Of a stretch of 64,000 nucleotides of DNA, positions 5 to 56,079 are shown piece by piece. The translations under genes were made by a program, and so were the position numbers. Within the stretch, counting starts at the first letter, position 1, and every line of letters starts with the position of its first letter. The DNA is taken from IMG/VR virus record IMGVR_UViG_3300044266_000359; one strand, given 5' to 3'. The notes under the pieces are model-generated. The model searched no databases and was not told where the DNA came from. It saw nothing but the letters and a program-made list of their open reading frames with translations. The stretch comes from an uncultured virus (IMG/VR IMGVR_UViG_3300044266_000359). Lineage: Duplodnaviria; Heunggongvirae; Uroviricota; Caudoviricetes.

Positions 5-1123
5 ATGAATCGTGAATTGGAAAACATGATTGCTGAGTCAATGAGCATCAACATGAGCGACTCTACCGAAGGTGGCAAGAGCTTGACTGTTACTGCCACT
101 GATGACGACGCAATGGCCCTGGCATCCATGCTGCAAAACGCAGGAATTGGCGGTGCACCAGAAGGCGAAGTTGAAGTTGTAGGAACACAAAGCCCAATCT
201 CCGGCGACGAAGGTGAGTGTCCAACTTGCGGTAGTCACGATTGTGGTTGCGGCGATATCGAAGAAGCACTCAGTGAAAATGAGCCAGACTGGCCAACAGA
301 CGAAGTTAAAAGCGACGATGCTATGCAATACAGCGGCGGCTTGAATGGTCCTAAGACAACTGGACAAACCACTGCACCTGTTATTGCTGCACAAAGCGAT
401 CGCCTTGGCGTTGACAGCGATGAACTACGTCGCTTACGTGAAATGGCAGGTATTCAAGAAGACACCGAAGATTGGACAGTTGATACTACTCAACGAGTCC
501 CACAAACTCCTCAGTTTAGTATCAATCGCTATCTTAAGGATCCAACAATCGCCCAATATAGCGACGCATTGTTCGGACTGTTACAAAACTACAGTGATGA
601 CGACGCAAAACTTGCCGATTTAGTCAAGCGTTATACATTGCCTTCAGAACGCGAACGTGAATTTAACAGAATGAAAAATCTTGTTAATTATTACAAACAA
701 CGCAACGCTGCATCAATGGCATCATTCAGTGCTAGACAAGATGCTGAAAAAGCACAACAAGCAAAGCAACAGCAACAGCAACAAGCAGGCACAATGGCTG
801 CTGCTAAAAAAGGTATTTCTGGTATGTACGAGCAAGAGCAAGTCATGGCCCCTGAGTCGATCGAAGAAGCGCAGGAAATATGCGAAGTCTGCGAAGCTGT
901 TCCTTGCAAGTGCGACGAAAGCATTGAAGAAAGCCTATCTCGCTTCCGTAGCCTAGCTGGTATTCAAGAAGCTGCCAAGCCAGACTTCACAGATGTTGAC
1001 AAAGACGGTGATGAAGAAGAGTCTTGGAAAAAGGCCGAACAAGACAAGAAGGAAAAAGAAGATAAGAAAGTTGAAGAAAGTATTCTATCAATGACCAATC
1101 TTTGGAAGGCCTACAAAGGGTAA
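5..1123 (+). CDS. Acidic hypothetical protein, probable head/scaffold-associated (may be 5'-truncated by the window edge)
   Basis: Long ORF with two Cys clusters (CPTCGSHDCGC, CEVCEAVPCKC), repeated LxRxRxxAGIQE motif and a DxDxDG motif; upstream of terminase. Confidence 0.6.
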   Translation: MNRELENMIAESMSINMSDSTEGGKSLTVTATDDDAMALASMLQNAGIGGAPEGEVEVVGTQSPISGDEGECPTCGSHDCGCGDIEEALSENEPDWPTDEVKSDDAMQYSGGLNGPKTTGQTTAPVIAAQSDRLGVDSDELRRLREMAGIQEDTEDWTVDTTQRVPQTPQFSINRYLKDPTIAQYSDALFGLLQNYSDDDAKLADLVKRYTLPSEREREFNRMKNLVNYYKQRNAASMASFSARQDAEKAQQAKQQQQQQAGTMAAAKKGISGMYEQEQVMAPESIEEAQEICEVCEAVPCKCDESIEESLSRFRSLAGIQEAAKPDFTDVDKDGDEEESWKKAEQDKKEKEDKKVEESILSMTNLWKAYKG

Positions 1124-1293: not shown

Positions 1294-1586
1294 TGTCTGC
1301 TAATGTTTATACATCTCTTGCCAATGCTGTGGTTTACACAGATAAACTGCGTATTAGCACAGGCTCAACTCCTGTGACATATCAAGTATATGCCACAGCA
1401 TTGGGCACTGCAAATGCTGTTGGAAACTTATATTCTGCTGCGATTCAACTCCCAGCGGCAACCACACGAGATGTCTATGCTGGCGCAGGCAACAAAGTTA
1501 CTGTAACTGGATCTAATTGGACTGCGCTTGAGGTAGGTACAGCAAGTTCAGCTCAAGCTGGCGTAATTGGAGCCGGGAGCAACTGA
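1293..1586 (+). CDS. Hypothetical beta-rich (Ala/Thr/Gly/Val) protein, possibly virion
   Basis: Stop/start overlaps on both sides; composition. Confidence 0.6.
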   Translation: MSANVYTSLANAVVYTDKLRISTGSTPVTYQVYATALGTANAVGNLYSAAIQLPAATTRDVYAGAGNKVTVTGSNWTALEVGTASSAQAGVIGAGSN

Positions 1587-1966
1587 TGAGAGCTCGTGAA
1601 TTCGTTGCTGAGGGCAGCCGAGGAGGCACGAGATCCAATGCTGCTCACGACTTTGAACGTGCTCATCCTGGCATGGTTGCACCGGGAGGTACCGGTGATG
1701 TATATTGGGGTCGGTATTATGACTTTTATCGAGTTTGTAGCTTGGCTGGCATGAACCCTGAAGACCTGGCCAAGACCGACGACATCAACTTCTTTGGCAA
1801 CTTGCCTATTTACAGCGCATACACAGATTATGACCGTGACAAACTCAAGGCCATCATGAAGAAACTAAAGATGAAGCCTAGAGATAGCATCAGCAATGGC
1901 AGTCACGAAACTGATGGCACCAACAGCACAAGCCCAGTCAAGGCCTTCAAAGGCTACAAGAGATAA
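1586..1966 (+). CDS. Putative internal head protein, paralogue A
   Basis: N-terminus MRAREFVAE resembles the T4 capsid-targeting sequence MKTYQEFIAE; C-terminus SPVKAFKGY. Confidence 0.6.
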   Translation: MRAREFVAEGSRGGTRSNAAHDFERAHPGMVAPGGTGDVYWGRYYDFYRVCSLAGMNPEDLAKTDDINFFGNLPIYSAYTDYDRDKLKAIMKKLKMKPRDSISNGSHETDGTNSTSPVKAFKGYKR

Positions 1967-1968
1967 TC

Positions 1969-2859
1969 ATGTGCATTATCGTTGCCAAATATTTTCCTGG
2001 CATTGGGTGGGCCGGTGCTAAGAATCGAGACCGCAAATACATTCCCAAATTGGATTTTATTGAAAGTGAAAAGAATGGCGTGGATCGCATGATGATGCAC
2101 GATCAAATCACTGGCTACAAAGAAGGCATTAACAGTCACGGTATCAGCATACTCAATACAAGTCTAGACTGCCTAGAAGATGAACCCGACGTTGAAGCAG
2201 GAACTGCTGATTCCAGTCCCGATGGCCAACTTATTGCCGCAGCATTGCTCAAAGACAATGTTCAAGATGCAGTTAAACTACTAATCAAGCACAAGCTAGT
2301 GGGTTGCACTATTGTATTTGATCAACACGAATTGTATCTAATAGAAGGCTGTGACCTAGATGGTACTGCACCTTACCGATACAAAGTCAAACAAATTCCG
2401 CGAACAGAAACTGTGACAAGAACCAATCATGGTATATGGATGCCTTGGGCTGGGTTTCAACGAGACTCAGGAGATAAACAACAAGAATTAGATCGTATCT
2501 CCAGCGAAGCAAGATTTGCTCAAGCCGAACGAGTGGTGAAATACGCAGAAGATCCTGAAGATTTAGTAGATGGCCTGTGTCAAGTGTACATCAATAACCC
2601 TCAGCTAAATATTATGAGAACAAGCACCGATACTAACAAGTATCGAACTACCAGTCAACAACTGTGTGTACCCAGAGAAAAAACACTGTATTGTCGACCC
2701 GTTAGCAGCCATTTAGAATTTGATTTCTGGAGGCTCAACAGACCCGAAACTCGTGTGTGGGTAGAAATATTAAGTAATCGTGCTTTGTGGCAGAATACTC
2801 GTGGTGAGCCACCATTTGGGCACTTGAATTTAAAGGACGTTGACAATGAGAGCAAGTGA
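1969..2859 (+). CDS. Ntn-hydrolase family protein (N-terminal Cys nucleophile; C45/NRDE-like)
   Basis: M-C-I-I start, KNRD, GINSHG and RTNH motifs. Confidence 0.65.
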   Translation: MCIIVAKYFPGIGWAGAKNRDRKYIPKLDFIESEKNGVDRMMMHDQITGYKEGINSHGISILNTSLDCLEDEPDVEAGTADSSPDGQLIAAALLKDNVQDAVKLLIKHKLVGCTIVFDQHELYLIEGCDLDGTAPYRYKVKQIPRTETVTRTNHGIWMPWAGFQRDSGDKQQELDRISSEARFAQAERVVKYAEDPEDLVDGLCQVYINNPQLNIMRTSTDTNKYRTTSQQLCVPREKTLYCRPVSSHLEFDFWRLNRPETRVWVEILSNRALWQNTRGEPPFGHLNLKDVDNESK

Positions 2860-3244
2860 GTTTGTAACTGAGGCAAGATTTGGCAGCGCCAAAGACGTTC
2901 CTGCCAGTGCTAAGAAACTGCCAAATCATCAAGTGTCCGCAATGAAAGGCATGATCAGTATGCCTGACATTTCAATGACCAAACAAGGTGGAAGTCCTTA
3001 CGCACAATGGCGTTTTGGTATTGCCATGGCCGGTGCTCCTGACTATCCCACCGAACCAGCCGGCGCATTTGCTGGTGACCCGCTGTTGGCTACATACTCA
3101 GACGCCGATATGGAAATCATTAACTCTGCTGCCAAAATGATCGGCGCGGGCCGTGTTAACAAAGTCACTGACAATCGCAGCACCGAGCACCCGGCTATTC
3201 ACAAAGTCAGTCCTGTCAAGGGCTTTGCGGGATATCCAAGATGA
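2846..3244 (+). CDS. Putative internal head protein, paralogue B
   Basis: MRASEFVTE ... QWRFGIAMAGA ... SPVKGFAGY. Confidence 0.6.
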   Translation: MRASEFVTEARFGSAKDVPASAKKLPNHQVSAMKGMISMPDISMTKQGGSPYAQWRFGIAMAGAPDYPTEPAGAFAGDPLLATYSDADMEIINSAAKMIGAGRVNKVTDNRSTEHPAIHKVSPVKGFAGYPR

Positions 3245-3627
3245 GAGCCCGAGAGTTTGTGAGCGAAGCCAAAACAGGCACAATCACCCGTGATGTAGGC
3301 TTGGCCTTGCCTGGTGCTTTTAAGATACCTGCACTTAAAAATCAAGATCCTTACTTACAATATCGCTTTGGTGTAGCCATTGCTGGCGCCAAAGGTGCAG
3401 CTCAACGTGCTAAAGACGGTGTGCCAGATTTCGACGGTGCTGAATCTGTTTTTGGTGAAAACGAAATTGTTATAAGCTATGATCCGCATGTTGAAGTATA
3501 CATCAAAGATGCTTTAAGAGCCATGGGACTTCCGCCTAGCGATGCCAAACGCATCGGCACACAAGCATCTGAAGAGGCACCAGATGTAGCAAAAACAAGT
3601 CCTGTAAAGGCATTCCAAGGATACTAA
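3241..3627 (+). CDS. Putative internal head protein, paralogue C
   Basis: MRAREFVSE ... QYRFGVAIAGA ... SPVKAFQGY. Confidence 0.6.
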   Translation: MRAREFVSEAKTGTITRDVGLALPGAFKIPALKNQDPYLQYRFGVAIAGAKGAAQRAKDGVPDFDGAESVFGENEIVISYDPHVEVYIKDALRAMGLPPSDAKRIGTQASEEAPDVAKTSPVKAFQGY

Positions 3628-6631: not shown

Positions 6632-8212
6632 ATGTTACAACCTAAGAATTTAGAAACTGTACTTGTCAAAGCTCCTCATCGCAAGGAAGTGTACACCGAT
6701 GAGGAATTGCGAGAGTTTGCACTTTGCGCTGACCCTGCGAATGGTCCATTGTATTTTATGGACCATTTCTTCTACATTCAGCATCCTACTAGAGGCAAGA
6801 TGTTGTATCACCCGTTTGAGTACCAAACTCGTCTGATACATACCTACCACAATTATCGGTACTCAATCAGTCTCATGCCACGGCAAACAGGCAAGTCAAC
6901 ATCAGCAGCTGGTTACTTGTTGTGGTATGCTATGTTTGTGCCAGACTCAACAATCTTAATTGCTGCACACAAGTACACAGGCGCACAGGAAATCATGCAG
7001 CGTATTCGCTATGCATATGAACTGTGCCCCAACCATATCAGAGCTGGCGCAACCAGTTACAACAAAGGCTCCATAGACTTTGAAAATGGTAGTCGTATTG
7101 TTTCGCAAACCACAACTGAAACAACAGGCCGGGGTATGTCTATCTCGCTCCTATACGCTGACGAATTTGCGTTTGTAAGACCCACTATTGCCAAAGAGTT
7201 TTGGACTTCTATCAGTCCTACCTTGGCCACAGGTGGTAAAGCAATTATTACCAGTACCCCCAACTCCGACGAAGACCAGTTTGCATTCTTGTGGAAAGGT
7301 GCTAACAAAACAGAAGATGCTTATGGCAACCAAACAGAGCTGGGAATCAATGGATTCCGTGCGTTTCGCAGCTACTGGAGAGAACATCCCGATCGTGGAG
7401 ACGAATGGGGCGCAGAGCAATTGGCACAGTTGGGCGAGGACAGATTCCGTCGAGAGATTGACTGTGAGTTTGTGATCAACGACGAAACGCTGATTGCTCC
7501 TACCAAACTGATTGATTTAGAAGGCGTAGAACCCATTCGCCGCACCGGTCAAGTGCGCTGGTATAAAAACATCGAAAAAGATGCCATATATGTTGTGGCT
7601 CTGGATCCCAGCTTGGGCACAGGCGGCGATCCTGCTGCTATTCAAGTGTTTGACGCCAGAACAACAGAACAAGTTGCTGAATGGCGCCACAACAAAACTG
7701 ATATTCCCACGCAAGTGAGAATCATGATTGACATTGTGAAAGAACTGAATTCCATAGTAAAAGACGAAAAGAGCATATACTATTCGGTGGAGAACAATAC
7801 CATTGGTGAAGCTGCACTGATCTCCATTGCTGACTACGGCGAGCAAAACATACCTGGTTACTTCTTGAGTGACAATTCAGTAACAGGCACCAGTGGCCGC
7901 AAATTCCGCAAAGGATTCAACACTACCAATAAAGCCAAGCTAACTGCTTGTAACAAATTCAAGATTCTAGTGGAATCGGGCCGCATGAAAATCCGGAGCA
8001 AGAGCCTGATTTCTGAGCTCAAAACCTTTGTGGCCCTGGGCACAAGTTATGCAGCCAAGCCCGGTGAAACTGACGATCTTGTGATGGCCACCCTGTTGGT
8101 CACACGCATGCTAATGATGCTGCAAACATTTCATTCAGATCTGGACTCGCACCTCAAAGATCACAGCGATATGATAGTAGAACCACTTCCTTTTATTTCA
8201 ATGTTTCGGTAA
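6632..8212 (+). CDS. Terminase large subunit (T4 gp17-like)
   Basis: PRQTGKS Walker A, LLYADEFAF Walker B, ITSTPN, nuclease ALDPS and DDLVMA motifs. Confidence 0.95.
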   Translation: MLQPKNLETVLVKAPHRKEVYTDEELREFALCADPANGPLYFMDHFFYIQHPTRGKMLYHPFEYQTRLIHTYHNYRYSISLMPRQTGKSTSAAGYLLWYAMFVPDSTILIAAHKYTGAQEIMQRIRYAYELCPNHIRAGATSYNKGSIDFENGSRIVSQTTTETTGRGMSISLLYADEFAFVRPTIAKEFWTSISPTLATGGKAIITSTPNSDEDQFAFLWKGANKTEDAYGNQTELGINGFRAFRSYWREHPDRGDEWGAEQLAQLGEDRFRREIDCEFVINDETLIAPTKLIDLEGVEPIRRTGQVRWYKNIEKDAIYVVALDPSLGTGGDPAAIQVFDARTTEQVAEWRHNKTDIPTQVRIMIDIVKELNSIVKDEKSIYYSVENNTIGEAALISIADYGEQNIPGYFLSDNSVTGTSGRKFRKGFNTTNKAKLTACNKFKILVESGRMKIRSKSLISELKTFVALGTSYAAKPGETDDLVMATLLVTRMLMMLQTFHSDLDSHLKDHSDMIVEPLPFISMFR

Positions 8213-8225
8213 TAAATAACACACT

Positions 8226-10892
8226 ATGGGTACAAAAGGCACAATTTCGCAAGATCTGTCAGATTTACTGACAACCAAAAATTTCGATCCTGTTTATACA
8301 GATGGCACAGGCAGAGACTCTTCGCCTGCTGAAGCAGTGGTATTCAGCTTCGATTACGTTGCTGGCTCGGGAAAAAACTACGGCACAGCAGTGGCAGTGC
8401 TTGGAGATCAAAACGATCTCCAGTTCTTTTTTGGGGACAACCTCGGCAAAAGCATTGACAATCCTGCAGATAAAAACGATTGGTTCCAGTTCTTGGAACA
8501 ACTGAGCAATTTTGCTACCCAACACAGATACACATTCAGTCCCAAAGACATCAATCAACTCAAGCACACCATGGCAGGTATTGCTGCCATCAAAGAAGGT
8601 TTGTTTGAAGGCTACTATGGCACTAGAAAAGTCAGCTACATGGGTGAAGCCACAGAAGCTAGACTGGTAATCAAGCACAAAAAGGCCCTGGAAGAAAACG
8701 ACCGTCGACACTTGTATGTGGAAAGCTTGTTTATTGAAACAGCAGATGGAGAACGATTCAAGTTGCCATTCCGCAAACTCACGGGTGGCCGTGCCATGCT
8801 GGAGCATGTGCGCCAAGGCGGCAAGCCCTATGACATTCGTGGTTGCCACATCGCCGAAATGGTGAACGAAATCAACCTGCTGGCCAGATTCAACAGAGCC
8901 AGTCACGGGCGAGTGTTTGAAGGTAACACAGCTCAATTGGTAGAATCAGCACAAGCATACTATCACACTTTGCAAGAGAACTTGAAGCATTTGGCCAGCA
9001 ATCGTGGCTACCAAGTGTATTTTGAATCTTGGACTCCTGCTGACATTGACGCTGGTGATGCCTTGGTAGAAGACATCAAGACTCTGTTTGTAGAGCAAAG
9101 CATCGATGCCAGAATTGAGGCAGCACTGCCCACTCTACTGAAAATACAACAACAGGAACAAGTCATGAAAGAAGCCCAAATATTCGAAAACTGGATCAAC
9201 CATCTTGCTGAAGGCACTTGGGCGCTGCCAGACACACCTGAACAAGAAGCCAAACTCAAAGAGCTTATGAGTCAGGAGCTGATTGCTGGACCAGACGGTG
9301 CCAATGCCACAGAACAACTGTATGATTTGGTAGGCGACGATCAACTGTTTGACCTTATTGGCGCTGCGGCCGAAGCTGACCCCAACGTAAACATTTGGGA
9401 CGTACCTGAAGTAGTGGATCGACTGCAAGAGTTGGGTGTAGAAGTACCTGTAAATCAAGAAGCCGACGAGCAAACTCCGCAAGCAGTGTCCGAAAGTCAC
9501 ATGAGTGAAGTTGATTCAATCATTCAAGACCTTATTTCCGGCGAAGCTGACGCTTACAACTTGCTGACCAGCCCGACCACTCCCGAAGAACAATATGTGT
9601 CCAATATTCTCCGCAAGGAATACGAAGATGTGTCCATTGATCACGGACTGCATCCGGACGATGACTTTGAAGAAATCATAGATCGCGTGCTTGACCGTTT
9701 GGCACAAGACTATGGACACAATGTAACCGAAGCCGACAGCCCATATTTTGCCGAAACCACAGTGGCCGGTTCAGTTGCTCCTGTGGCACATGAAATGGCA
9801 GAAGAAAGTGAAAAGAATCCTTTTACTAATGCGTTAGGTCATGCGTTATGGCGTGACCTAAGCAAAGAAAAGAAAGCAAGCCCTCAACAAGTTCAGCGCA
9901 ACAAAGAGCGTTGGGCAAAGCGTCAGGCAGAGCGTGAGCAAGGTGTGGCGGAAGAGGCCGAAAATAAAGATATGACCGGCCAAACTTGCGAAAAGTGTAA
10001 GCGCGGTAAGTATCAAGAAACCAGCATCCACGATGATATGGATGGTGTATTACATTGTACCAAGTGCGGCACCAAGGTTGATCGTTGGAGAGCATACAAA
10101 GAACCGAGCGCCCGCGCCAGAAGTCGTCAAGCAACAAAAGATTTTAATCGTAGTAAAAGTCAAGGTATGGCAGAAGGCTCAACTGATACTGTGTATCCCA
10201 ACGCCGAAGTAATCAAATCCAAAAACGGCAAGCCAATTGGTGAGATATACAAAGATGAGTATGGTTGGGGCTGCTTCCATTATGGTGCTGACCGTGGATA
10301 CGACTTGATCGACAGCAGAAAAGATGCCATTGACGCACTGCGAGACTTGCATCAAGAAGCAGGTCACAAAGGCCCGGACTATACAATTAAAGGTGTGGCG
10401 GAAGGCTACGATGACGAAGAACACCCAATCCGCGATGATGGCAACGAAGGTCGTCCGGGCAAACAATACCAGTGCCCGCGTTGTCATTCCACCGACATAA
10501 AAACATACAGTGATGGCGAGAAGGAATGTCACCAGTGCCATAAAACCTGGGATGTTAAAGGTGTGGCGGAAACAACAAGAGGTGGGTTTGGTGGCTCAGC
10601 CGGTCAAGCACATCACGAAATTGAATGGCTCAAGAACAAGATTGAAACACTGAAACCATTGTTGGCCAAGAAACCAAGTATTGCTCGTCAAATAAAAGAT
10701 TTGGAAAGACAAATCCGTGAGAGAGAACTGGCTATAGCATATCAGAAGGAAGGCATGGCAGAAGGCGAGCAACAGGCTTTTGTGAATCCGCACCACAATG
10801 ATCCAATCAACGCCAACAGCGCCATTACCGGTAGCTACTACGAAGGTGAAGATCCTCTGGTAAGATTAAAATCACTGGCTTTGTCTAAATGA
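8226..10892 (+). CDS. 888-aa putative virion/head protein with C-terminal repeat-delimited module array
   Basis: Long ORF after a TAAATA motif; acidic middle; recurring GVAE/GMAE motifs. Confidence 0.7.
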   Translation: MGTKGTISQDLSDLLTTKNFDPVYTDGTGRDSSPAEAVVFSFDYVAGSGKNYGTAVAVLGDQNDLQFFFGDNLGKSIDNPADKNDWFQFLEQLSNFATQHRYTFSPKDINQLKHTMAGIAAIKEGLFEGYYGTRKVSYMGEATEARLVIKHKKALEENDRRHLYVESLFIETADGERFKLPFRKLTGGRAMLEHVRQGGKPYDIRGCHIAEMVNEINLLARFNRASHGRVFEGNTAQLVESAQAYYHTLQENLKHLASNRGYQVYFESWTPADIDAGDALVEDIKTLFVEQSIDARIEAALPTLLKIQQQEQVMKEAQIFENWINHLAEGTWALPDTPEQEAKLKELMSQELIAGPDGANATEQLYDLVGDDQLFDLIGAAAEADPNVNIWDVPEVVDRLQELGVEVPVNQEADEQTPQAVSESHMSEVDSIIQDLISGEADAYNLLTSPTTPEEQYVSNILRKEYEDVSIDHGLHPDDDFEEIIDRVLDRLAQDYGHNVTEADSPYFAETTVAGSVAPVAHEMAEESEKNPFTNALGHALWRDLSKEKKASPQQVQRNKERWAKRQAEREQGVAEEAENKDMTGQTCEKCKRGKYQETSIHDDMDGVLHCTKCGTKVDRWRAYKEPSARARSRQATKDFNRSKSQGMAEGSTDTVYPNAEVIKSKNGKPIGEIYKDEYGWGCFHYGADRGYDLIDSRKDAIDALRDLHQEAGHKGPDYTIKGVAEGYDDEEHPIRDDGNEGRPGKQYQCPRCHSTDIKTYSDGEKECHQCHKTWDVKGVAETTRGGFGGSAGQAHHEIEWLKNKIETLKPLLAKKPSIARQIKDLERQIRERELAIAYQKEGMAEGEQQAFVNPHHNDPINANSAITGSYYEGEDPLVRLKSLALSK
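9792..10766 (+). repeat. Dispersed in-frame repeat AAGGYRTGGCRGAA (GVAE/GMAE), 5 copies plus one degenerate EMAE
   Basis: Copies begin at 9939, 10161, 10389, 10557, 10749; EMAE at 9792. Confidence 0.85.
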
Positions 10893-11032: not shown

Positions 11033-12037
11033 ATGGCATCATTAGCAGAAATTCGCGCACGTTTACAGGCAGCAGAAAACAAACAAGGTGGGCAATCCAC
11101 TGGCGGAGACAACTCAATTTATCCGCACTGGAATATGGAAGAAGGCCAATCGGCTACACTACGCTTCCTACCCGATGGTAACTCCAAAAACACTTTCTTC
11201 TGGATGGAACGAGCAATGATTCGTTTGCCTTTCGCTGGTATCAAAGGCGAAATGGATTCGAAACAAGTTATGGTTCAAGTACCTTGTGTTGAGATGTGGG
11301 GCGAAGCTTGTCCAATCTTGGCAGAAGTTCGTACTTGGTTCAAGGACAAGAGCCTTGAAGAAATGGGTCGCAAATACTGGAAAAAGCGCAGTTACATTTT
11401 CCAAGGCTTTGTGCGTGAAAACCCCTTGAGCGAAGACAAGACTCCTGAGAACCCAATTCGCCGATTCATCATCGGTCCTCAGATCTTCACAACCATCAAA
11501 GGCGCCTTGATGGACCCCGAGTTGGAAGAATTGCCAACTGACTACCTGCGTGGCCTGGACTTCCGTATCAGCAAAGGTTCAAAAGGTGGATTTGCTGACT
11601 ACAACGGCAGCAAGTGGGCACGTAAAGAAAGCGCTCTCACTGAAGAAGAGCAAGCAGCCATTGAAAAGCATGGCTTGTTTGACTTGAGCACATTCCTGCC
11701 CAAGAAGCCCGGCGAAGTTGAGCTCAAGGTTATCAAAGAGATGTTTGAAGCATCTGTTGATGGTCAGCCATACGACACCGAGCGTTGGGGTCAATACTTC
11801 CGTCCTGCTGGTGTTCAAGCACCTGGCGGCGCTGCATCCAACAACGACGAGGACACACCTGCTCCTGCAGCCAAGGCAGCACCTGCTCCTGCAGCCAAGC
11901 CTGCTGCGGTTGACGAGGATCCTCCTTTTGACACCGATGACGCTCCAGCAGCCAGCGCACCTGTACAGGCCGCAAAGCCTGCAGGCAATGCCCAAGACAT
12001 CTTGGCAATGATTCGCGCTCGTCAAAACAAGCAGTAA
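11033..12037 (+). CDS. Single-stranded DNA-binding protein (T4 gp32-like)
   Basis: LRFLPDG, CPI, YWKKRSY and G.DF motifs; Ala/Pro/acidic tail; SD AAGGA; followed by uvsX. Confidence 0.85.
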   Translation: MASLAEIRARLQAAENKQGGQSTGGDNSIYPHWNMEEGQSATLRFLPDGNSKNTFFWMERAMIRLPFAGIKGEMDSKQVMVQVPCVEMWGEACPILAEVRTWFKDKSLEEMGRKYWKKRSYIFQGFVRENPLSEDKTPENPIRRFIIGPQIFTTIKGALMDPELEELPTDYLRGLDFRISKGSKGGFADYNGSKWARKESALTEEEQAAIEKHGLFDLSTFLPKKPGEVELKVIKEMFEASVDGQPYDTERWGQYFRPAGVQAPGGAASNNDEDTPAPAAKAAPAPAAKPAAVDEDPPFDTDDAPAASAPVQAAKPAGNAQDILAMIRARQNKQ

Positions 12038-12051
12038 TAACTACTGAACAC

Positions 12052-12073
12052 ACGCAAGGGGAAACCCTTGCGT
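12052..12073 (+). other. Perfect 9-bp hairpin with GAAA tetraloop between gp32 and uvsX (no T-run)
   Basis: ACGCAAGGG-GAAA-CCCTTGCGT. Confidence 0.7.
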
Positions 12074-12094
12074 TCCATTCTCTATAGGTGATAC

Positions 12095-13156
12095 ATGGCA
12101 AAACCATTTGATGTAAGTAAGTTCCGCAAGGAAATTACAAAAAGTATTGACGGCCTTTCTATTGGCTTCAACGACCCAACTGATTGGGTCTCCACAGGCA
12201 ACTATGCCTTGAACTATCTCATTAGTGGTGACTTCAACCGCGGCATTCCGCTGGGCAAAGTCACTGTGTTTGCAGGTGAATCTGGCGCAGGCAAAAGTTA
12301 TATCTGCTCTGGTAACATTATCAAGAACGCACAAGAACAAGGTATCTTTGTTGTGCTGATTGACAGTGAAAATGCTTTGGACGAAGACTGGCTCAAAGCA
12401 CTTGGTGTTGACACCAACGAAAACAAACTTCTCAAATTATCAATGGCCATGATCGATGACGTAGCCAAAACAATCTCTACGTTCATGGCTGATTACAAAG
12501 GCTTGCCCGACGGAGAACGGCCCAAAGTTCTTTTTGTTATCGACTCCCTCGGAATGTTGCTGACCCCTACCGACATCAACCAGTTTGACAGCGGTGACCT
12601 GAAAGGTGACCTTGGGCGTAAACCTAAAGCTCTTACCGCACTAGTCCGCAACTGTGTTAATATGTTTGGTAGTTATAACGTGGGTTTGGTTTGTACCAAC
12701 CACACTTATGCCAGCCAAGACATGTTTGATCCTGACGATAAGATTAGCGGCGGGCAAGGTTTTATCTACGCAAGCTCAATTGTTGTTGCTATGAAGAAAC
12801 TCAAACTCAAAGAGGACGAGGACGGCAACAAAGTAACTGACGTTATGGGTATTCGTAGTGCTTGCAAGGTTATGAAAACTCGCTATGCCAAACCCTTTGA
12901 AGGTGTGCAGGTGAAAATTCCTTATGAGACAGGTATGAATCCTTACTCAGGTCTTGTGGACTTGGCTGAAAAGAAAGGCTTCCTCAAGAAAGACGGTAAC
13001 CGGTTGGCTTATACCACATTAGACGGTGAGATCATCAAGCATTTCCGCAAAGCTTGGGAATCAAACGAAGGCGGATGCCTTGATGTGGTTATGGCAGAAT
13101 TCGGAAAACGCAAAGAAGAGGTAAGTATTGTCGATGACAATCAGGAGGAAGCGTAA
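12095..13156 (+). CDS. uvsX: RecA-like recombinase UvsX
   Basis: GESGAGKS, LIDSENAL, FVIDSLG, TNHTY, SGG motifs. Confidence 0.92.
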   Translation: MAKPFDVSKFRKEITKSIDGLSIGFNDPTDWVSTGNYALNYLISGDFNRGIPLGKVTVFAGESGAGKSYICSGNIIKNAQEQGIFVVLIDSENALDEDWLKALGVDTNENKLLKLSMAMIDDVAKTISTFMADYKGLPDGERPKVLFVIDSLGMLLTPTDINQFDSGDLKGDLGRKPKALTALVRNCVNMFGSYNVGLVCTNHTYASQDMFDPDDKISGGQGFIYASSIVVAMKKLKLKEDEDGNKVTDVMGIRSACKVMKTRYAKPFEGVQVKIPYETGMNPYSGLVDLAEKKGFLKKDGNRLAYTTLDGEIIKHFRKAWESNEGGCLDVVMAEFGKRKEEVSIVDDNQEEA

Positions 13157-13420
13157 ATGCATTCAGAAGTAGCAAGCGAAATTTGGAGTGAACTCAAGCG
13201 TTATATCAACACAGTAGATCGCACTGAAGCCGCAGAAGTCCTTATCTCTACACTAGTTAACTATGACGAGGATGTTGAGGATATCCGGGACGCATTCAAA
13301 GGCGATTCGGATGTTAAAAAGGCCCTTGTGGCCTATCTCGACAACGACCAAGATCATGAGGACGAAGAAGAGGAAGAAGAAGACTACGACGAAGATTACA
13401 ACGAAGACTGGGAAGATTAA
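13157..13420 (+). CDS. Acidic hypothetical protein
   Basis: Coupled ORF with Asp/Glu-rich C-terminus. Confidence 0.7.
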   Translation: MHSEVASEIWSELKRYINTVDRTEAAEVLISTLVNYDEDVEDIRDAFKGDSDVKKALVAYLDNDQDHEDEEEEEEDYDEDYNEDWED

Positions 13421-13872
13421 TGTGGTATAGTCGTGTTGTTGCTGATCTTGGAAGCATTCCAGATTTTATAGCACACTACGAACGCGAACTTGTTGATGCC
13501 AAAAAAGATTGTAAAATCGGTGGCATCGTAGAAAAGAATATCACTGCCCTACCAGGTATAACTGAGCACCGTTTTAATCAACTACAAGAGATTGAAGCGG
13601 TGCTTAATTATCTCAATATTCAGCTTCGCAAAATTCGTAGAAAGCATTTCCAAAAGTACTTGGAAGCCTATGCTCGTGCCTTGACCTCACGTGATGCTGA
13701 AAAGTACGTGGATGGCGAAGACGAAGTGATTGACTTTGAAACCATCATCAACGAAGTTGCATTATTGCGTAACAAGTGGTTGGGTGTAATGAAAGGCCTA
13801 GACACCAAGCAGTGGCAAATGGGTCACGTGGTGCGATTAAGAACTGCAGGCATGGAAGACATTCAGGTGTAA
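13420..13872 (+). CDS. uvsY: Recombination mediator UvsY-like protein
   Basis: 150-aa helical protein, YVDGED and KGLDTKQWQ-type C-terminus, downstream of uvsX. Confidence 0.75.
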   Translation: MWYSRVVADLGSIPDFIAHYERELVDAKKDCKIGGIVEKNITALPGITEHRFNQLQEIEAVLNYLNIQLRKIRRKHFQKYLEAYARALTSRDAEKYVDGEDEVIDFETIINEVALLRNKWLGVMKGLDTKQWQMGHVVRLRTAGMEDIQV

Positions 13873-18548: not shown

Positions 18549-19240
18549 TTCACGGATCAGGCTACGACTGGATCTATGTAGATCATTTGTATAACATGTT
18601 GAATAGAACCTTGCAGAATCGTGTGAGGTTACATGTTTATACCGAAGCTGATAGGCCAGTGCCGTCGCACATGATCAAGCATGAATTGAAAGAATGGCCT
18701 GGCATATCGGGTCCTCGGCGCAGCTGGTGGTATAAATTACAGTTGTTTGATAGTGAACATCACTCAGGTGATTTGCTGTATTTTGATTTGGATACAGTGA
18801 TTGTTCGCGACATAACTTGGATCCCCGAACTCACAACAGAAAAACTCTGGACCATTAGAGATTTTAGAAACTTACAAAACCCAAATCACTGGGGAATGAA
18901 TTCCAGTGTGATGTGGTGGAACGTGTCTAAATTCAACTGGGTCTGGGAACAGTTCAAAAACAGCAACATTGCCACGGTCATATCCAAGCATCCGCACGGT
19001 GATCAACAGTACATTGGTAATGCAGTTGGGCACAATGCAATTAGATTTTTGGATGCCAATCGAGTGCAAAGCTGGCGCTGGCAAGCACATGATGGCGGCT
19101 TTGATTTTGTAAAGAGACAGGCAAAAACTCCGGGCACAGGAACATGCATCGACAATGACGTTGCAATATTGGTATTTCATGGTCAACCTAAACCTCACGA
19201 ATTGCCAAATGATGTTGTAATAAAACAACACTGGAAATAA
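18506..19240 (+). CDS. Glycosyltransferase (GT-A)
   Basis: WWYKLQLF, YFDLD, NSSVM, GDQ, FHGQPKP motifs. Confidence 0.78.
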   Translation: MDSKNRTSVDCACLIHGSGYDWIYVDHLYNMLNRTLQNRVRLHVYTEADRPVPSHMIKHELKEWPGISGPRRSWWYKLQLFDSEHHSGDLLYFDLDTVIVRDITWIPELTTEKLWTIRDFRNLQNPNHWGMNSSVMWWNVSKFNWVWEQFKNSNIATVISKHPHGDQQYIGNAVGHNAIRFLDANRVQSWRWQAHDGGFDFVKRQAKTPGTGTCIDNDVAILVFHGQPKPHELPNDVVIKQHWK

Positions 19241-19242
19241 GG

Positions 19243-19304
19243 TTGACCAATAATTCCCATTTTGCTATAATATACACATAAACAGCAAACAGGAGCCACA
19301 AATG
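19243..19304 (+). promoter_or_regulatory. Early sigma70 promoter + RBS cassette, copy 1
   Basis: TTGACC-N17-TATAAT ... CAGGAG ... ATG. Confidence 0.85.
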
Positions 19305-19523
19305 GAACTCGCAATTGGTACCAAAATCCGTTACACCAGCGCCGCAGGTGTCCGTGTTGCAACTGTTAGCAACATCAAAGTTGCCCCTACTGCCAAGCCC
19401 GGCTTTCTGAACACCTGGTTGACCCTGGACATTCCCGTCCAGCGTGGCGTAAAATTTAATACTAAAGTTAATATTCCTGCTGACAACGGTTCTTTGTCTG
19501 CATTCCGTGTTGAATTGGCTTGA
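19302..19523 (+). CDS. Small early hypothetical protein
   Basis: Promoter and AGGAG RBS directly upstream. Confidence 0.8.
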   Translation: MELAIGTKIRYTSAAGVRVATVSNIKVAPTAKPGFLNTWLTLDIPVQRGVKFNTKVNIPADNGSLSAFRVELA

Positions 19524-19581
19524 CCAATAATTCCCAATTTGCTATAATATACACATAAACAGCAAACAGGAGCCCCAAATG
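19520..19581 (+). promoter_or_regulatory. Early promoter + RBS cassette, copy 2 (60/62 identical to copy 1)
   Basis: Direct sequence comparison. Confidence 0.85.
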
Positions 19582-19725
19582 CAAGTACGTGAATTGATAG
19601 AGTTATTGTCGCAATTTGACCCTGAATCCCAGGTATTGTCATCGCAAGCCGGTGGAGAATACGAGTCTGACTTGTCCTTACTGGAAGTAGAAGTCTGCGA
19701 TGGGGTTGTTTGGTTGCGTGACTAA
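19579..19725 (+). CDS. 48-aa early protein MQVRELIELLSQFDPE... (not in ORF track)
   Basis: Translated manually; RBS AGGAG; fills the gap between two cassettes. Confidence 0.75.
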   Translation: MQVRELIELLSQFDPESQVLSSQAGGEYESDLSLLEVEVCDGVVWLRD

Positions 19726-19728
19726 CGG

Positions 19729-19791
19729 TTGACCAATAAATCCCAAACTGCTATAATACAATTTTAACGCACAAAACAGGAGCCAACCATG
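19729..19791 (+). promoter_or_regulatory. Early promoter + RBS cassette, copy 3 (diverged)
   Basis: TTGACC-N17-TATAAT ... AACAGGAGCC. Confidence 0.8.
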
Positions 19792-43258: not shown

Positions 43259-43431
43259 TAGCTAACGCACAAGATCTGCCAGAAAAGAAAGCCAGCGTAG
43301 AGGTATCGGGCATCAAAGTTGTTGTTGACAAAAACGATAACTGGGAAACTGTAGGAATGATACTCGTACTTGTATTAGGAGTATACGCAGGAATCAAAGT
43401 TATAAACAAAATTTTTAAGGAAACTAAATGA
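43255..43431 (+). CDS. 58-aa single-TM microprotein (not in ORF track)
   Basis: ATGA overlaps with both nrdA and aceA. Confidence 0.6.
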
Positions 43432-44636
43432 AAAAGCGTAATTACACACAGGAACAAGTTCGTAAGTTACAAGGTAGCGTACAAATTGAACACACACTGG
43501 CCAAACGTGGAGCATACAAACTTCGCGAGCTATTGGCCAATGAACCATACATCAACACCTTGGGTGCATACAATGGTCAAATGGCAGTACAACATGCCAA
43601 AGCTGGACTCAAAGCAATTTACTTGAGCGGTTGGCAAGTGGCAGGTGCAAACAATACCTCAAACCAAACCTATCCCGACCAGTCATTGTATCCAGTTGAC
43701 TCAGTACCTCGTGTGGTCAAAGGTATTAACAATGCTTTCCGTCGTGCTGATCAAATTGAAACACTGGAAGGCAATGTCACAACAGATTACTTCCTGCCTA
43801 TTGTTGCAGATGCCGAAGCAGGCTTTGGTGGTGCGCTAAACGCTTACGAACTGATGGCAGCAATGATCGAAGCTGGCGCTGCTGGTGTACACTTTGAAGA
43901 TCAATTGGCGTCGGAAAAGAAATGCGGCCACTTGGGCGGCAAAGTTCTTGTACCCACAAGTCAAATGATTCGCACACTGAATGCCGCACGACTGGCCGCG
44001 GACGTTGCAGGAGTTGACACAGTTATCATGGCCCGAACCGATGCAGAAAGTGCAACACTGATTACCAGCGACCACGACCCACTAGACAAGGATTTTATTA
44101 TCAATGAGCGCACTGAAGAAGGCTTTTATAAATTTAAGAATGGTATTGATGCTTGTATTAGCAGAGGTCTTGCTTATGCCCCTTACGCTGATCTCCTTTG
44201 GTTTGAAACTTCGACTCCTGATATTGCACAAGCTAAGAAGTTTGCTGATGCCATCCACGCTGAGTTTCCTGACCAAATGCTTGCTTACAATTGCAGTCCT
44301 AGTTTTAATTGGCGTAAGTTTTTGAGCGAAGACGAGTGCGAAACGTTCCAGCGTGAACTAGGCGAACTGGGCTACAAGTTCCAGTTCATTACACTTGCCG
44401 GCTTCCACTCAGTTAACCTTGCTACCTTTGAATTGGCCGAAGCGTACCGTCAACGTGGTATGGCTGGCTATTCAGAAATGCAACAACGTGAGTTTGCCGC
44501 TCAAGAGCGTGGATTTACCACTGTCAAGCATCAACGTGAAGTTGGCGTTGGTTACTTTGATGCTATCAGCGAAGCAGTGGGTGCCACAAGCACTGTGGCC
44601 AACCGAACAAGTACAGAATCGGATCAGTTTCATTGA
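43428..44636 (+). CDS. aceA: Isocitrate lyase
   Basis: [59 protein letters not shown]. Confidence 0.97.
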
Positions 44637-48912: not shown

Positions 48913-48953
48913 AGTATACATTTTTAGGTTAGTACACACTTACCCGAAAACAG

Positions 48954-48982
48954 TTGACCAAAAATAGCTATTTTGCTATAAT
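48954..48982 (+). promoter_or_regulatory. Early promoter, same family as 19243
   Basis: TTGACC-N17(…TTTTGC)-TATAAT. Confidence 0.8.
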
Positions 48983-48988
48983 AACAAC

Positions 48989-49108
48989 ATGAACAACAAA
49001 ACACCAGTCGAAACGCCCGAAGACGAGTACACCACAGGCATGGACATTGCTGACAGTGTCGGGCTCATTGCTTTGTGCGTGTTGATTGTGCTGGCACTGT
49101 CAATCTAA
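48989..49108 (+). CDS. 39-aa leaderless single-TM microprotein (not in ORF track)
   Basis: ATG 6 nt after the -10; stop just before the next promoter. Confidence 0.55.
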   Translation: MNNKTPVETPEDEYTTGMDIADSVGLIALCVLIVLALSI

Positions 49109-49111
49109 CGG

Positions 49112-49140
49112 TTGACCAATATTTCCCATTTTGCTATAAT
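49112..49140 (+). promoter_or_regulatory. Early promoter, same family as 19243
   Basis: TTGACCAATATTTCCCATTTTGCTATAAT then AACAGGAG. Confidence 0.85.
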
Positions 49141-49172
49141 TGAAACATAGCGTAACAAAACAGGAGTTTGAG

Positions 49173-52957: not shown

Positions 52958-54394
52958 ATGTTTCTCTCATGGTTAATGATGGGCGTGGCACTGAGTCTCA
53001 GTGTTATCGCCGCTTTTTATAGTATAGCAGGTTTGGCTGCTATTTTTGCCGCGGCGGTGGTTCCTATTGTGGTAATGGGAACAATATTAGAAGTCGCCAA
53101 GCTCACTGTCACAGTTTGGTTACACGAGTACTGGCCACGGTGCCGATTCCTTATGAAGGCATACCTGGTACCTGCGGTGGCATTGCTTGCTTTTATTACC
53201 AGTATGGGTATATTTGGATTTCTAAGCAAAGCACACAGTGACCAGGGCATGGTGTCAGGTGACGTGCAAGCCAAGATTGCCATTTACGATGAAAAAATTC
53301 AAACCGAACGGGAGAACATTGATGCAAATCGCAAGGCGCTTAAACAACTTGATGAGGCAGTGGACCAAGTTATGGCACGCTCAACAGATGAAAAAGGGGC
53401 CGATAAGGCCGTGGCAATACGGCGAGCCCAGCAAAAAGATCGCGCTCGTTTACTTGAAGAAATTAGCAAGAGCCAATTGCGGATTACCGCACTCAACGAA
53501 GAACGAGCTCCAATTGCGGCGGAAGTACGAAAAGTGGAGGCCGAAGTGGGCCCTATCAAGTATATCGCCGCCTTGGTGTATGGGGATAACACCGATGCAA
53601 ACATTTTAGAACGGGCAGTGCGTTGGGTCATAATTATTCTAGTAATTGTATTTGACCCATTGGCAATTATGATGCTGTTGGCTGCAACCGAAAGCTTCAA
53701 GTGGGAGAAAGAGCCGCCTGTGGCAGAAACTGTAGTTGATGATGACAAGATTCGAGAAACTGCCAAAGAGCAAGAGCCCGAAATACCAGCGGAGCCTGTG
53801 CCCGAAGTTGAAAAGTCTTGGCAAGAAAAGTATCCATATCTCACTAAACCTTTTGTGCATTTCAGTAATACCAAACCGGTAGTCTATTCGGGCAATCCTG
53901 CAGAGTTTCAACAACCTTGGCCGGAAGAGAAAAAACAAGAGTTGGTCAAGGTAATGAAGGATATTTTCCCGTCGGACGATTGGTTAGACGGCGAAGAGCA
54001 TGGTTCAGATGAAGAAAAGCAAGCCATAAGAGAATGGAAAGCGGCTAATCCTGAACTCACAGTAAAAGCACAGCGAGAACTGCTGGCACGTGGTGAAATT
54101 ACCGAACTACCTTGGGCAAGAAAACCCAATTCAACTTTTGGATTTGTGTTTCCTTGGAGCCCAGAAAAAGGCGACACATTTATCAAAACAGATGTGGTGC
54201 CCAATGCAATGTACAAGTTTAACGGAACTCAATGGATGGCCGTTGACAAATCTGTGTTAGACAGTTATACTCATGATACTGCATACATTGATTATCTTAT
54301 CTCCAAAATATCATCAGGTGAATATGATCCTGAGCTATTGTCTGAAGACTTGCGTGATCAAGTAGCTGAACGTATCAAACAAACTGACGCATGA
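52958..54394 (+). CDS. Multi-pass membrane/coiled-coil protein
   Basis: Three N-terminal TM segments, GIFGFLSKAH, coiled coil, EVGPIKY, VFDPLA. Confidence 0.75.
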   Translation: MFLSWLMMGVALSLSVIAAFYSIAGLAAIFAAAVVPIVVMGTILEVAKLTVTVWLHEYWPRCRFLMKAYLVPAVALLAFITSMGIFGFLSKAHSDQGMVSGDVQAKIAIYDEKIQTERENIDANRKALKQLDEAVDQVMARSTDEKGADKAVAIRRAQQKDRARLLEEISKSQLRITALNEERAPIAAEVRKVEAEVGPIKYIAALVYGDNTDANILERAVRWVIIILVIVFDPLAIMMLLAATESFKWEKEPPVAETVVDDDKIRETAKEQEPEIPAEPVPEVEKSWQEKYPYLTKPFVHFSNTKPVVYSGNPAEFQQPWPEEKKQELVKVMKDIFPSDDWLDGEEHGSDEEKQAIREWKAANPELTVKAQRELLARGEITELPWARKPNSTFGFVFPWSPEKGDTFIKTDVVPNAMYKFNGTQWMAVDKSVLDSYTHDTAYIDYLISKISSGEYDPELLSEDLRDQVAERIKQTDA

Positions 54395-55626: not shown

Positions 55627-55813
55627 CGACAACATAGAAAAAGCTCTGCGTAAGTTCAAAAAGAAAATCCAAAACTCGGACATTCTTAACGAGCTACGCA
55701 AAAGAGAGCATTACGTTAAACCTACCACCAAGCGCAAACTCAAACGTAGCGCGGCTAAAAATCGCTGGCGTAAAAAGCTGGACGATCAAGCATTGCCCAA
55801 GAAGCTATACTAA
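55589..55813 (+). CDS. rpsU: Ribosomal protein bS21
   Basis: IEKALRKFKKK...ELRKREHYVKPT..RK. Confidence 0.92.
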   Translation: MNKLRGRSVLVTDDNIEKALRKFKKKIQNSDILNELRKREHYVKPTTKRKLKRSAAKNRWRKKLDDQALPKKLY

Positions 55814-56052
55814 TGTACGTGGAGTTCAAGCTACCCGAATCTATTGCTGGTGCGTCATTATTGTTGCTTCGTCGTAGCATACTTGATTGGTCCGAAAAAT
55901 ACCAAATTCCTTACACTGAAAAAACCATAAAATACACTTACCGCGTGTGTTTTGATAAAGACGAGTCTTATAGTTTTTTTGCAATGACCTATCCACAGAC
56001 CCGGCACTTTCTCCAATATCGCATTGTGTCTGACCTAAATAATAAAATATAA
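55813..56052 (+). CDS. Hypothetical protein
   Basis: TAATG coupling. Confidence 0.6.
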   Translation: MYVEFKLPESIAGASLLLLRRSILDWSEKYQIPYTEKTIKYTYRVCFDKDESYSFFAMTYPQTRHFLQYRIVSDLNNKI

Positions 56053-56079
56053 TTTGATTTCGTGTATAATAAATAACAA

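What the first reader, a model, noticed from the sequence alone, without database searches (positions are those of the whole stretch)
9792..10766. Repeat-delimited in-frame cassette array: candidate shufflable virion-cargo polyprotein
Seen: the C-terminal third of the 888-aa gene is divided by a repeat conserved at the DNA level. AAGGTGTGGCGGAA is identical in the copies starting 9939, 10389 and 10557; AAGGYATGGCAGAAGGC occurs in those starting 10161 and 10749; a degenerate EMAE lies at 9792. Spacings are 150, 222, 228, 168 and 192 nt, all multiples of 3. The intervening 50-76 aa modules are mutually dissimilar: a basic helix, a CxxC..CxxC Zn ribbon, a small alpha/beta domain, a second Zn ribbon and a coiled coil. 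Established: T4-type prohead proteases cut after hydrophobic-X-Glu, which V-A-E and M-A-E fit. Inference: the repeat is both a protease site that releases mini-proteins inside the capsid and a recombination anchor for gaining, losing or swapping modules. Identical synonymous codons (GTG GCG) in three copies argue for a DNA-level role or recent exchange. This would be an integron-like library of injected effectors.
Basis: partly seen in the sequence, partly recalled or inferred. Interest (0 to 1): 0.88.

Follow-up and report, generated by a model that had tools for sequence, protein, structure and literature searches.

The report
Swappable mini-protein cassettes in phage head
A head gene of an uncultured giant freshwater phage carries five small unrelated proteins joined by one short coded linker; related phages gain, lose and trade these pieces exactly at that linker, even between different genes, and the linker looks like a cut site for the phage's head protease, although cutting has not been measured.

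Summary
Confirmed. The 888-aa gene after the terminase of a PA5oct/GAP32-like jumbo phage holds five 46-72 aa cassettes between copies of a coded linker (G-V/M-A-E; DNA consensus CAAGGYRTGGCRGAAG). Six orthologues with at least 393/400 identical N-terminal residues carry five other cassette sets; where DNA was held, the breakpoints sit on the linker. All five cassettes recur in unrelated genes; M4, M2 and M1 are the best DNA matches (98, 90, 88%) to a 338-kb phage whose core genes are 66-82% identical. Linker DNA is constrained at silent sites, cassettes are under purifying selection (dN/dS 0.19), and the protein pattern fits a gp21-type protease: hydrophobic-X-Glu is kept in drifted linkers, depleted inside cassettes and enriched in scaffolds. 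Not an integron: no integrase in five records, no hairpin. Cleavage, packaging, ejection and cassette function are inferred only. No paper found in 10 searches, but this scan has already noted the same system on at least nine other windows, so this is a further, well-resolved case.

The parts
6632..8212 (+). Terminase large subunit (upstream neighbour)
   Evidence: Pfam Terminase_6N/6C, PHROG terminase
8210..8218 (+). T4-type late-promoter-like motif TAATAAATA just before the start codon
   Evidence: Seen; likeness to the T4 late promoter is recalled
8226..10892 (+). 888-aa carrier gene: conserved virion-protein N-terminus, variable middle, cassette array, conserved C-terminal tail
8226..9215 (+). 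Conserved N-terminal region (aa 1-330), homologous to virion structural proteins of PA5oct and GAP32-like phages; aa 111-330 hold 12 hydrophobic-X-Glu-small sites against 2.1 expected
   Evidence: phrog_13484 E 7e-9; tblastn; PA5oct gp278 noted ESI-MS/MS
9792..9803 (+). Degenerate first linker (E-M-A-E); 5' breakpoint of the array
   Evidence: Identity to L212 ends here; same entry point in P0002, P0003, P0256, P0257, P0258 and L213
9804..9941 (+). Cassette M1, 46 aa, basic (pI 9.7 with linker)
   Evidence: 88% DNA identity to a cassette in a 256-aa non-orthologous gene of G002; also in P0127, P0132
9939..9954 (+). Linker copy 1 (G-V-A-E at 9942-9953)
9954..10163 (+). Cassette M2, 70 aa, two CxxC motifs (zinc ribbon by pattern)
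   Evidence: 95-97% aa identity in L070, L212, L213; 19 longer carriers and 3 free-standing 47-61 aa homologues
10161..10176 (+). Linker copy 2 (G-M-A-E at 10164-10175)
10176..10391 (+). Cassette M3, 72 aa, predicted four-stranded sheet plus helix, folds alone (pLDDT 87.5)
   Evidence: 113 homologues at the 50% cluster level; flanks; model
10389..10404 (+). Linker copy 3 (G-V-A-E at 10392-10403)
10404..10559 (+). Cassette M4, 52 aa, two CxxC motifs
   Evidence: 98% identical in a 672-aa non-orthologous gene of G002; cleanly absent from P0257
10557..10572 (+). Linker copy 4 (G-V-A-E at 10560-10571)
10572..10751 (+). Cassette M5, 60 aa, basic, helical by pattern
   Evidence: 85% identical between linkers in L111; present in P0257
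10749..10764 (+). Linker copy 5 (G-M-A-E at 10752-10763); 3' breakpoint
   Evidence: L212 lacks exactly the 588 nt between copies 2 and 5
10851..10889 (+). Conserved C-terminal motif (L-x-R-L/I-K-x-L-A), resembling the C-terminus of the prohead scaffold of relatives
   Evidence: 116 of 120 orthologues; scaffold ends seen; a head-binding role is inferred
11033..13872 (+). SSB, UvsX-like recombinase and UvsY-like mediator: the general recombination genes that could act on the linkers
   Evidence: PHROG matches; their role here is inferred
1586..3627 (+). Three small ORFs (1586-1966, 2840-3244, 3241-3627) with near-identical N-terminal leaders ending in hydrophobic-X-Glu: single-protein, T4-internal-protein-like cargo
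   Evidence: function inferred

Best explanation
The gene encodes a late prohead-core protein that also carries cargo. Its 16-base linker does two jobs. As DNA it is a short shared homology at which cassettes are inserted, deleted, reordered and moved between genes and between co-infecting phages without breaking the frame, most likely by the phage's own T4-type recombination proteins rather than a dedicated integrase (exchange at the linker: shown; the enzyme: inferred). As protein it reads G-V/M-A-E, which the gp21-type (S77) prohead protease would cut after Glu, releasing 6-8 kDa mini-proteins inside the head (inferred from sequence statistics). These probably enter the host with the DNA and act early, like T4 IPI, with fast turnover driven by host defences (inferred by analogy). 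Odds: exchange at the linker 0.97, cleavage at the linker about 0.8, ejected early-acting cargo about 0.55.
For: Allelic series at one site with at least 393/400 identical N-terminal residues: M1-M2-M3-M4-M5 (window), A-B-M2-M3-M5, A-B-M2 (two proteins), A-M2, A-C-D-E; a sixth protein has another cassette at another site. Base-level breakpoints on the linker against L212. M1, M2 and M4 are the three best DNA matches (88-98%) to G002, in two non-orthologous genes; core genes 66-82%. 153 of 299 internal ends of high-identity DNA matches lie within 15 nt of a linker, against 21 expected (max 35 in 1000 draws). 195 of 202 neighbouring linker pairs are in frame and open; 163 distinct cassettes in 139 clusters. 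The 17-mer is in the G-V-A-E frame in 77 of 80 viral loci, with a second copy nearby in 45; in cellular genomes 38 of 120 and 0. Silent sites in loci chosen by protein only: GCT/GCC 7 of 68 (background 53%), GCG 22 of 68 (6%), GTG 26 of 34 Val. Among 229 drifted linkers, P3 stays hydrophobic (V/M/I/L) in 226 and P1 stays Glu in 210, while P2 and P4 stay in 177 each. Hydrophobic-X-Glu-small is depleted inside 103 cassettes (11 vs 31.5 +/- 5.2), not in non-cargo window proteins (77 vs 65 +/- 7), and enriched in two scaffolds (16 and 18 vs 4.5), in aa 111-330 (12 vs 2.1) and in PA5oct gp278 (13 vs 4.1). S77 protease in 3 of 5 related records. Pooled dN/dS 0.19; pS above pN in 16 of 18 cassette pairs. 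27 of 63 other carrier genes begin with a CTS-like leader against 20 of 348 control ORFs.
Against: No proteomics exists for any carrier; nothing here shows cutting, packaging or ejection. The printed T4 rule is L/I-X-E, and A-X-E or S/A/G-X-E in giant phages; V/M at P3 is an extension. Two of the six window sites are followed by Glu rather than a small residue. 144 of 299 match ends lie 100 nt or more from a recognised linker in at least one partner, so other joints exist. 37 of 121 orthologues have no G-[VMLI]-A-E at all, and that count includes an unrelated conserved motif; the G002 orthologue (472 aa) and PA5oct gp278 have no array. This gene has no CTS-like leader. The leader pattern was written after seeing the data, and its controls include spurious ORFs. 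Related sites were counted as independent in the codon tests. Silent changes are mostly transitions, which recent common descent alone explains. Hydrophobic-X-Glu may be partly raised in helical proteins. Contigs of four runs showed no joint between two window linkers. The window's own protease gene was not seen (G001 is 25% complete).
Confidence: 0.7

Rival explanations
1. The linker is cut, but the released peptides work during head assembly or inside the particle (DNA-condensing or core filler) or leave the head; they are not ejected effectors.
For: The carrier's conserved part is rich in cut-like sites, like a scaffold; T4 core fragments mostly leave the head (PMC9026906 passages); half of 163 cassettes have pI above 9.
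Against: 139 unrelated clusters, with GNAT, HD and zinc-ribbon types among carriers, rapid exchange and avoidance of internal cut sites are more than filler needs; M3 is predicted to be a folded domain.
Confidence: 0.15
2. The protein is not cut: the linker is a flexible joint in a beads-on-a-string virion protein, and its conservation is purely a product of recombination.
For: No cleavage data; DNA homogenisation explains the silent-site pattern; polyvalent proteins can be packaged unprocessed (PMC5512222 passages).
Against: It does not explain why P3 and P1 resist change while P2 and P4 drift, nor why cassette interiors lack the motif.
Confidence: 0.1
3. A dedicated, still unrecognised site-specific recombinase reads the 16-mer and mobilises cassettes, possibly as small circles (a true integron analogue). 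This concerns the DNA step and is compatible with cleavage.
For: 12-16 nt is short for homologous recombination; the same linker is shared by phages only about 70% identical in core genes; joints are precise.
Against: No PF00589, PF00239 or PF00078 match in 5 records, 4 of them 97-100% complete; no hairpin (z-scores -1.0 to +2.0); other phages use other Glu-ending joints for the same M2 module; T4 recombination is said to need only patches under 50 bp (PMC2839356 passage).
Confidence: 0.15
4. The Val/Met codon of the linker (GTG/ATG) is an internal translation start, giving nested C-terminal products.
For: 56 of 69 sites in protein-chosen loci have GTG or ATG at this position.
Against: GTA, ATA, CTG, ATT and TTA also occur; GTG to ATG is a simple transition; cassettes have no stop codons, and nested starts would not explain the fixed Glu or the depletion inside cassettes.
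Confidence: 0.04

Closest known systems
Phage T4 internal proteins IPI, IPII, IPIII and Alt (capsid-targeting sequence plus gp21 processing; variable ip1 locus)
   Same: Small, often basic proteins placed in the head, cut after hydrophobic-X-Glu by a gp21-type protease; T-even phages carry diverse sets at ip1 and IPI blocks GmrSD (PMC9026906, PMC4437046, passages). CTS-like leaders occur on many carriers and on three small window ORFs.
   Different: T4 IPs are one protein per gene. Here several are strung in frame inside one gene, attached to a conserved core protein, and the cut site is also the DNA exchange point.
PeSL-mediated modular shuffling in T4-type phages RB49/phi1
   Same: Short dispersed repeats mark insertions, deletions and replacements of small ORFans and can yield mini-circles (PMC2839356, abstract and passages).
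   Different: PeSLs are intergenic promoter/stem-loop units that move whole genes. This repeat is 16 nt, coding, unstructured and works inside reading frames.
Polyvalent proteins of phages and conjugative elements
   Same: Many unrelated domains in one polypeptide, proposed to be co-delivered with DNA; likened to polyproteins and to cassette recombination (PMC5512222, passages).
   Different: The word 'linker' does not occur in that paper's main text. Cassettes here are mostly 50-120 aa and unclassified; none of the hallmark domains was found in the window gene.
Polymorphic toxin cassettes (CdiA, Rhs)
   Same: A conserved coded junction marks where variable modules recombine into a carrier (PMC5512222 passage); that the junction is also a processing site is recalled, not from a call.
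   Different: One terminal toxin plus immunity gene in a secreted bacterial protein, against serial arrays shared across many phage genes with no immunity genes seen.
Integrons
   Same: Tandem array of exchangeable cassettes drawn from a large shared pool.
   Different: No integrase, no folded attC-type site, and cassettes are in-frame protein modules without own start or stop.

Membership tests
T4 internal proteins (IP/CTS system) | N-terminal ~10-residue capsid-targeting leader | tested here: not met
   The 888-aa protein does not match the leader pattern; 27 of 63 other carrier genes do (pattern written after seeing the data)
T4 internal proteins (IP/CTS system) | gp21-type prohead protease encoded by the phage | tested here: inconclusive
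   PF03420 in 3 of 5 records (3 of 4 near-complete relatives); not in the 25%-complete nearest record G001
T4 internal proteins (IP/CTS system) | Cleavage after L/I-X-Glu during head maturation | not testable with these tools
   Motif statistics fit a broader hydrophobic-X-Glu rule; no cleavage data
T4 internal proteins (IP/CTS system) | Packaged in the head and ejected into the host | not testable with these tools
   Only the distant homologue of the N-terminal region (25% identity, PA5oct gp278) is marked ESI-MS/MS
T4 internal proteins (IP/CTS system) | One small protein per gene | tested here: not met
   Five modules in frame in one 888-aa ORF
Integron | IntI tyrosine recombinase | tested here: not met
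   PF00589 0 of 5 records, 4 of them 97-100% complete; control 14 of 14
Integron | attC site folding into a single-strand hairpin | tested here: not met
   24 folds around the 6 sites, z-scores -1.0 to +2.0
Integron | Cassettes are separate ORFs with own start and stop | tested here: not met
   195 of 202 linker pairs in frame and open
PeSL modular shuffling | Repeat is an intergenic promoter plus stem-loop | tested here: not met
   Repeat is inside ORFs, in one frame, without hairpin
PeSL modular shuffling | Insertions, deletions and replacements end at the repeat | tested here: met
PeSL modular shuffling | Excised mini-circles | not testable with these tools
   Only assembled contigs could be laid
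Polyvalent proteins | 2-15 unrelated domains in one polypeptide of a phage | tested here: met
Polyvalent proteins | Hallmark domains (MPTase, ART, GNAT, kinases, LPD families) | tested here: inconclusive
   None in the window gene; GNAT in 1 of 138 cassettes and 1 of 42 carriers, HD in 2 of 42
Diversity-generating retroelement | Reverse transcriptase | tested here: not met
   PF00078 0 of 5 records; control 3 of 14

The most novel reading that the evidence does not exclude
A clade of freshwater jumbo phages runs a community-wide, frame-preserving cassette system in which one 16-base word is at once the recombination joint and the head-protease site. Small free-standing genes are captured between linkers and traded among dozens of head-cargo genes, giving a combinatorial library of hundreds of injected mini-proteins (mostly of unknown family, probably counter-defence) whose exact ends can be read from sequence.
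Probability: 0.5. Interest if true: 0.9.

Novelty: new variant of a known kind. Interest (0 to 1): 0.78.

Why it matters
It shows a way to evolve co-delivered cargo by plug-in modules: a cassette placed between two linkers would be targeted, released and made exchangeable in one step. The linker also marks the borders of a large pool of small, purifying-selected proteins (139 clusters from a limited set of loci, 4 of 138 representatives above a Pfam cut-off), which can be synthesised and screened as candidate anti-defence proteins. It also explains why assemblies of these phages break here (22 of 80 loci have the linker within 400 nt of a contig end, about 6 expected).

Tried and rejected
No whole genome is held for the window; G001 and G002-G006 served instead. 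Genome-wide repeat finding did not list this family among the 20 largest. Pfam and PHROG gave no cut-off match for the five cassettes; ESM Atlas gave no hit at 0.9 or above for M3. The N-terminal model was poor (pLDDT 53) and had no PDB match; its BFVD hits are its own relatives. The M3 model had no Foldseek match and a best VIA Z of 5.2 (rmsd 3.7, 61 aligned), a common sheet-plus-helix arrangement; no fold or function is claimed. Laying contigs of 4 runs at 90% likeness showed loose ends at 9954, 10389-10390 and 10407 and two short joints near linkers, but these short pieces probably come from other phages, and no joint joined two window linkers; contigs drop rare variants, so this says nothing either way on within-population excision. 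Linkage of Val/Met with GCG/GCA was not significant (p 0.19). Integrase, resolvase, reverse transcriptase and hairpin tests were negative. The 17-mer in cellular genomes occurs as scattered single hits, so there is no sign of a host repeat. PA5oct has one 1-mismatch copy in 287 kb, so cultured relatives do not seem to use this linker (only this one genome tested); a search of cultured phages with the array found only an M2-like free ORF in a Variovorax phage and two weak hits. No complex prediction was run. Assembly artefact rejected: clean frame, same array in G001, and colinear contigs across single linkers in other runs. In one search the sixth query (H0) was out of frame and was ignored. 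One of 139 cassette representatives (a chance pair spanning the N-terminal domain, L148) was dropped. PA5oct supplementary Table S5 (virion peptides) was not read; it may show whether gp278 is processed.
Full report
Setting. The window is part of a large T4-related phage: terminase, SSB, UvsX, UvsY and helicase genes. The closest cultured terminases are those of PA5oct-like phages (51%) and GAP32-like phages (45%). Related records that share the repeat are 300-364 kb; the best sequencing runs holding the gene are freshwater metagenomes. The gene in question (8226-10892, 888 aa) follows the terminase and a late-promoter-like motif. Residues 88-267 match a PHROG 'virion structural protein', and the PA5oct homologue, two genes after its terminase, is annotated as found by ESI-MS/MS.

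Observation. Confirmed as described: five copies of AAGGYRTGGCRGAA, all in this gene, 0.12 expected; a degenerate sixth site at 9792; modules of 46, 70, 72, 52 and 60 aa.

Exchange at the linker (shown). A protein search with aa 1-340 returned 2681 relatives, of which 120 were listed, 542-1173 aa long. Six proteins share at least 393 of the first 400 residues with the window yet differ in cargo: P0257 A-B-M2-M3-M5, P0002 and P0258 A-B-M2, P0256 A-M2, P0003 A-C-D-E, and P0001 with one other cassette at an earlier site. For P0002 the DNA is held (L212): identity stops at the EMAE site, resumes at linker 1, and the 588 nt between linkers 2 and 5 are missing exactly. L213 (84% N-terminal identity) has a short M4 before M2, so order changes too.

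Cassettes move between genes and phages. M2, M3, M4 and M5 were found between linkers in non-orthologous frames, M1 in a 256-aa gene of G002. Against the whole 338-kb G002 record the three highest-identity matches of the window are M4 (98%), M2 (90%) and M1 (88%), in two genes about 165 kb from G002's own orthologue, which is 472 aa and has no array; apart from one 57-nt match at 86%, the other matches are 66-82%. M3 has 113 relatives among 50%-identity representatives; of 82 matches in proteins over 130 aa, 68 have a linker-like site upstream, 63 downstream and 55 on both sides, with 80 different upstream neighbours. About 23 of the 113 are free-standing proteins of 57-124 aa (counted by eye), one with a CTS-like leader (P0227). 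M2 has 19 longer carriers, 9 of them with G-V/M-x-E on both sides by eye, 3 free-standing forms of 47-61 aa and a free ORF in a cultured Variovorax phage. So cassettes probably arise by capture of small genes (inference). Across all held loci, 195 of 202 neighbouring linker pairs are in frame and open, defining 163 cassettes in 139 clusters, median 71 aa. 153 of 299 internal ends of DNA matches of at least 85% lie at a linker, against 21 by chance; 144 lie far from one in at least one partner.

DNA constraint. In 160 loci chosen by the N-terminal protein alone the consensus is CAA GGY RTG GCR GAA G; GCT/GCC is 7 of 68 against 53% background, GCG 22 of 68 against 6%. The 17-mer sits in the G-V-A-E frame in 77 of 80 viral loci against 38 of 120 cellular hits. 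The variation is mostly transitions, which fits copies homogenised by recent exchange and does not require a site-reading protein. No tyrosine recombinase, resolvase or reverse transcriptase was found in 5 records, and there is no hairpin. I therefore favour short-homology recombination by the phage's own system; PMC2839356 (abstract and passages) reports repeat-mediated shuffling and mini-circles in T4-type phages and cites a need of under 50 bp.

Protein constraint (indirect). T4 gp21 cuts after L/I-X-E, chops the scaffold into fragments and removes 10-residue leaders from internal proteins (PMC9026906 and PMC5694885, passages); SPN3US and phiKZ proteases cut after A-X-E and S/A/G-X-E (PMC10052503, PMC13282480, passages). 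Three of 5 related records encode an S77 protease between a core gene and a scaffold gene. Among 456 in-frame near-consensus sites (1 out of frame), the 229 drifted ones keep a hydrophobic P3 in 226 and Glu in 210, but Ala and Gly in only 177 each. Hydrophobic-X-Glu-small is depleted inside 103 cassettes (11 vs 31.5), slightly raised in non-cargo proteins (77 vs 65), and 3.5-4-fold enriched in scaffolds, the positive control. The conserved aa 111-330 of this protein (12 vs 2.1) and PA5oct gp278 (13 vs 4.1) are enriched too, and 116 of 120 orthologues end in a motif like the scaffold's C-terminus. This points to a core-associated protease substrate. 27 of 63 other carriers start with a CTS-like leader against 20 of 348 controls (pattern chosen after inspection). 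Cassettes are real proteins: dN/dS 0.19 pooled over 18 pairs, and M3 is predicted to fold alone.

What the cargo does is open. No window cassette reaches a Pfam cut-off; 4 of 138 representatives do (DUF6321, GNAT, and a TAT-signal-like stretch counted where at cut-off: one at 22.8 against 22.7; the two-family rows below cut-off are not counted) so the number is 3 to 4 at most; 42 long carriers gave GNAT, HD and DUF6321 hits in a few. The analogy to T4 IPI, an ejected inhibitor of GmrSD encoded at a variable locus (PMC4437046, passages), is the basis for the counter-defence reading.

Against my reading: no direct evidence of cutting, packaging or ejection; the array is optional (37 of 121 orthologues lack the motif); this gene has no leader; the P3 residue departs from the T4 rule; contigs showed no within-strain excision.

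Literature. Ten searches found no description of linker-delimited, exchangeable cassettes in phage head proteins; 'GVAEG' with 'phage' gave 0 papers; the 2026 jumbo-phage review has no 'polyprotein' or 'cassette' in its main text. PMC5512222, PMC7824862 and PMC9503650 (passages) cover polyvalent, head-packaged effectors without a shared linker in the passages seen. PMC7318152 (passages) lists 93 virion-associated products; its peptide table was not read. The library lacks most subscription journals. Within this scan, nine earlier notes on other genomes describe the same or a parallel system; my reading was written down before I saw them, and they are not counted as evidence.

Verdict. The feature is real and the exchange mechanism is located to the base. 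It works like T4 internal proteins combined with PeSL-type shuffling but is a member of neither, and it is not an integron. New variant of a known kind; interest 0.78.

Noticed in passing
window 1586-1966, 2840-3244, 3241-3627: Three small ORFs with near-identical N-terminal leaders ending in hydrophobic-X-Glu and similar C-termini; look like single T4-internal-protein-type cargo genes; no Pfam or PHROG match.
   Followed up: partly
window 5-1123: 372-aa protein with two copies of an L-x-R-x-R-x-L/M-A-G-I motif (37-nt direct repeat at 425 and 935), like the scaffold C-terminus of relatives.
   Followed up: no
window 19236-19776 and 48947-49159: Five copies of a 55-nt intergenic repeat holding a strong sigma-70-like promoter pattern before small genes; resembles PeSL-type early-promoter cassettes, a second possible shuffling system.
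   Followed up: no
window 43428-44636, 60086-60796, 54391-58912, 62424-63443: Host-like genes: isocitrate lyase, fatty acid desaturase, ClpX, DnaK, Hsp20, ClpS and UvdE endonuclease; the isocitrate lyase gene is 82% identical in G002, above other core genes.
   Followed up: partly
window 9490-9740 (aa about 423-505): An acidic helical module between S-E-S and T-E-A-D sites is itself present or absent among orthologues (absent in P0001, P0007), bounded by other Glu-ending joints.
   Followed up: no
L321 (G001 about 75500-75830): A 115-aa ORF whose first 44 positions match the major capsid protein family, fused to an unrelated tail.
   Followed up: no
P0134-P0137, P0138: M2-like modules bounded by other Glu-ending joints (E-S-V-E-E type) in other carrier families, suggesting parallel linker dialects.
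   Followed up: no
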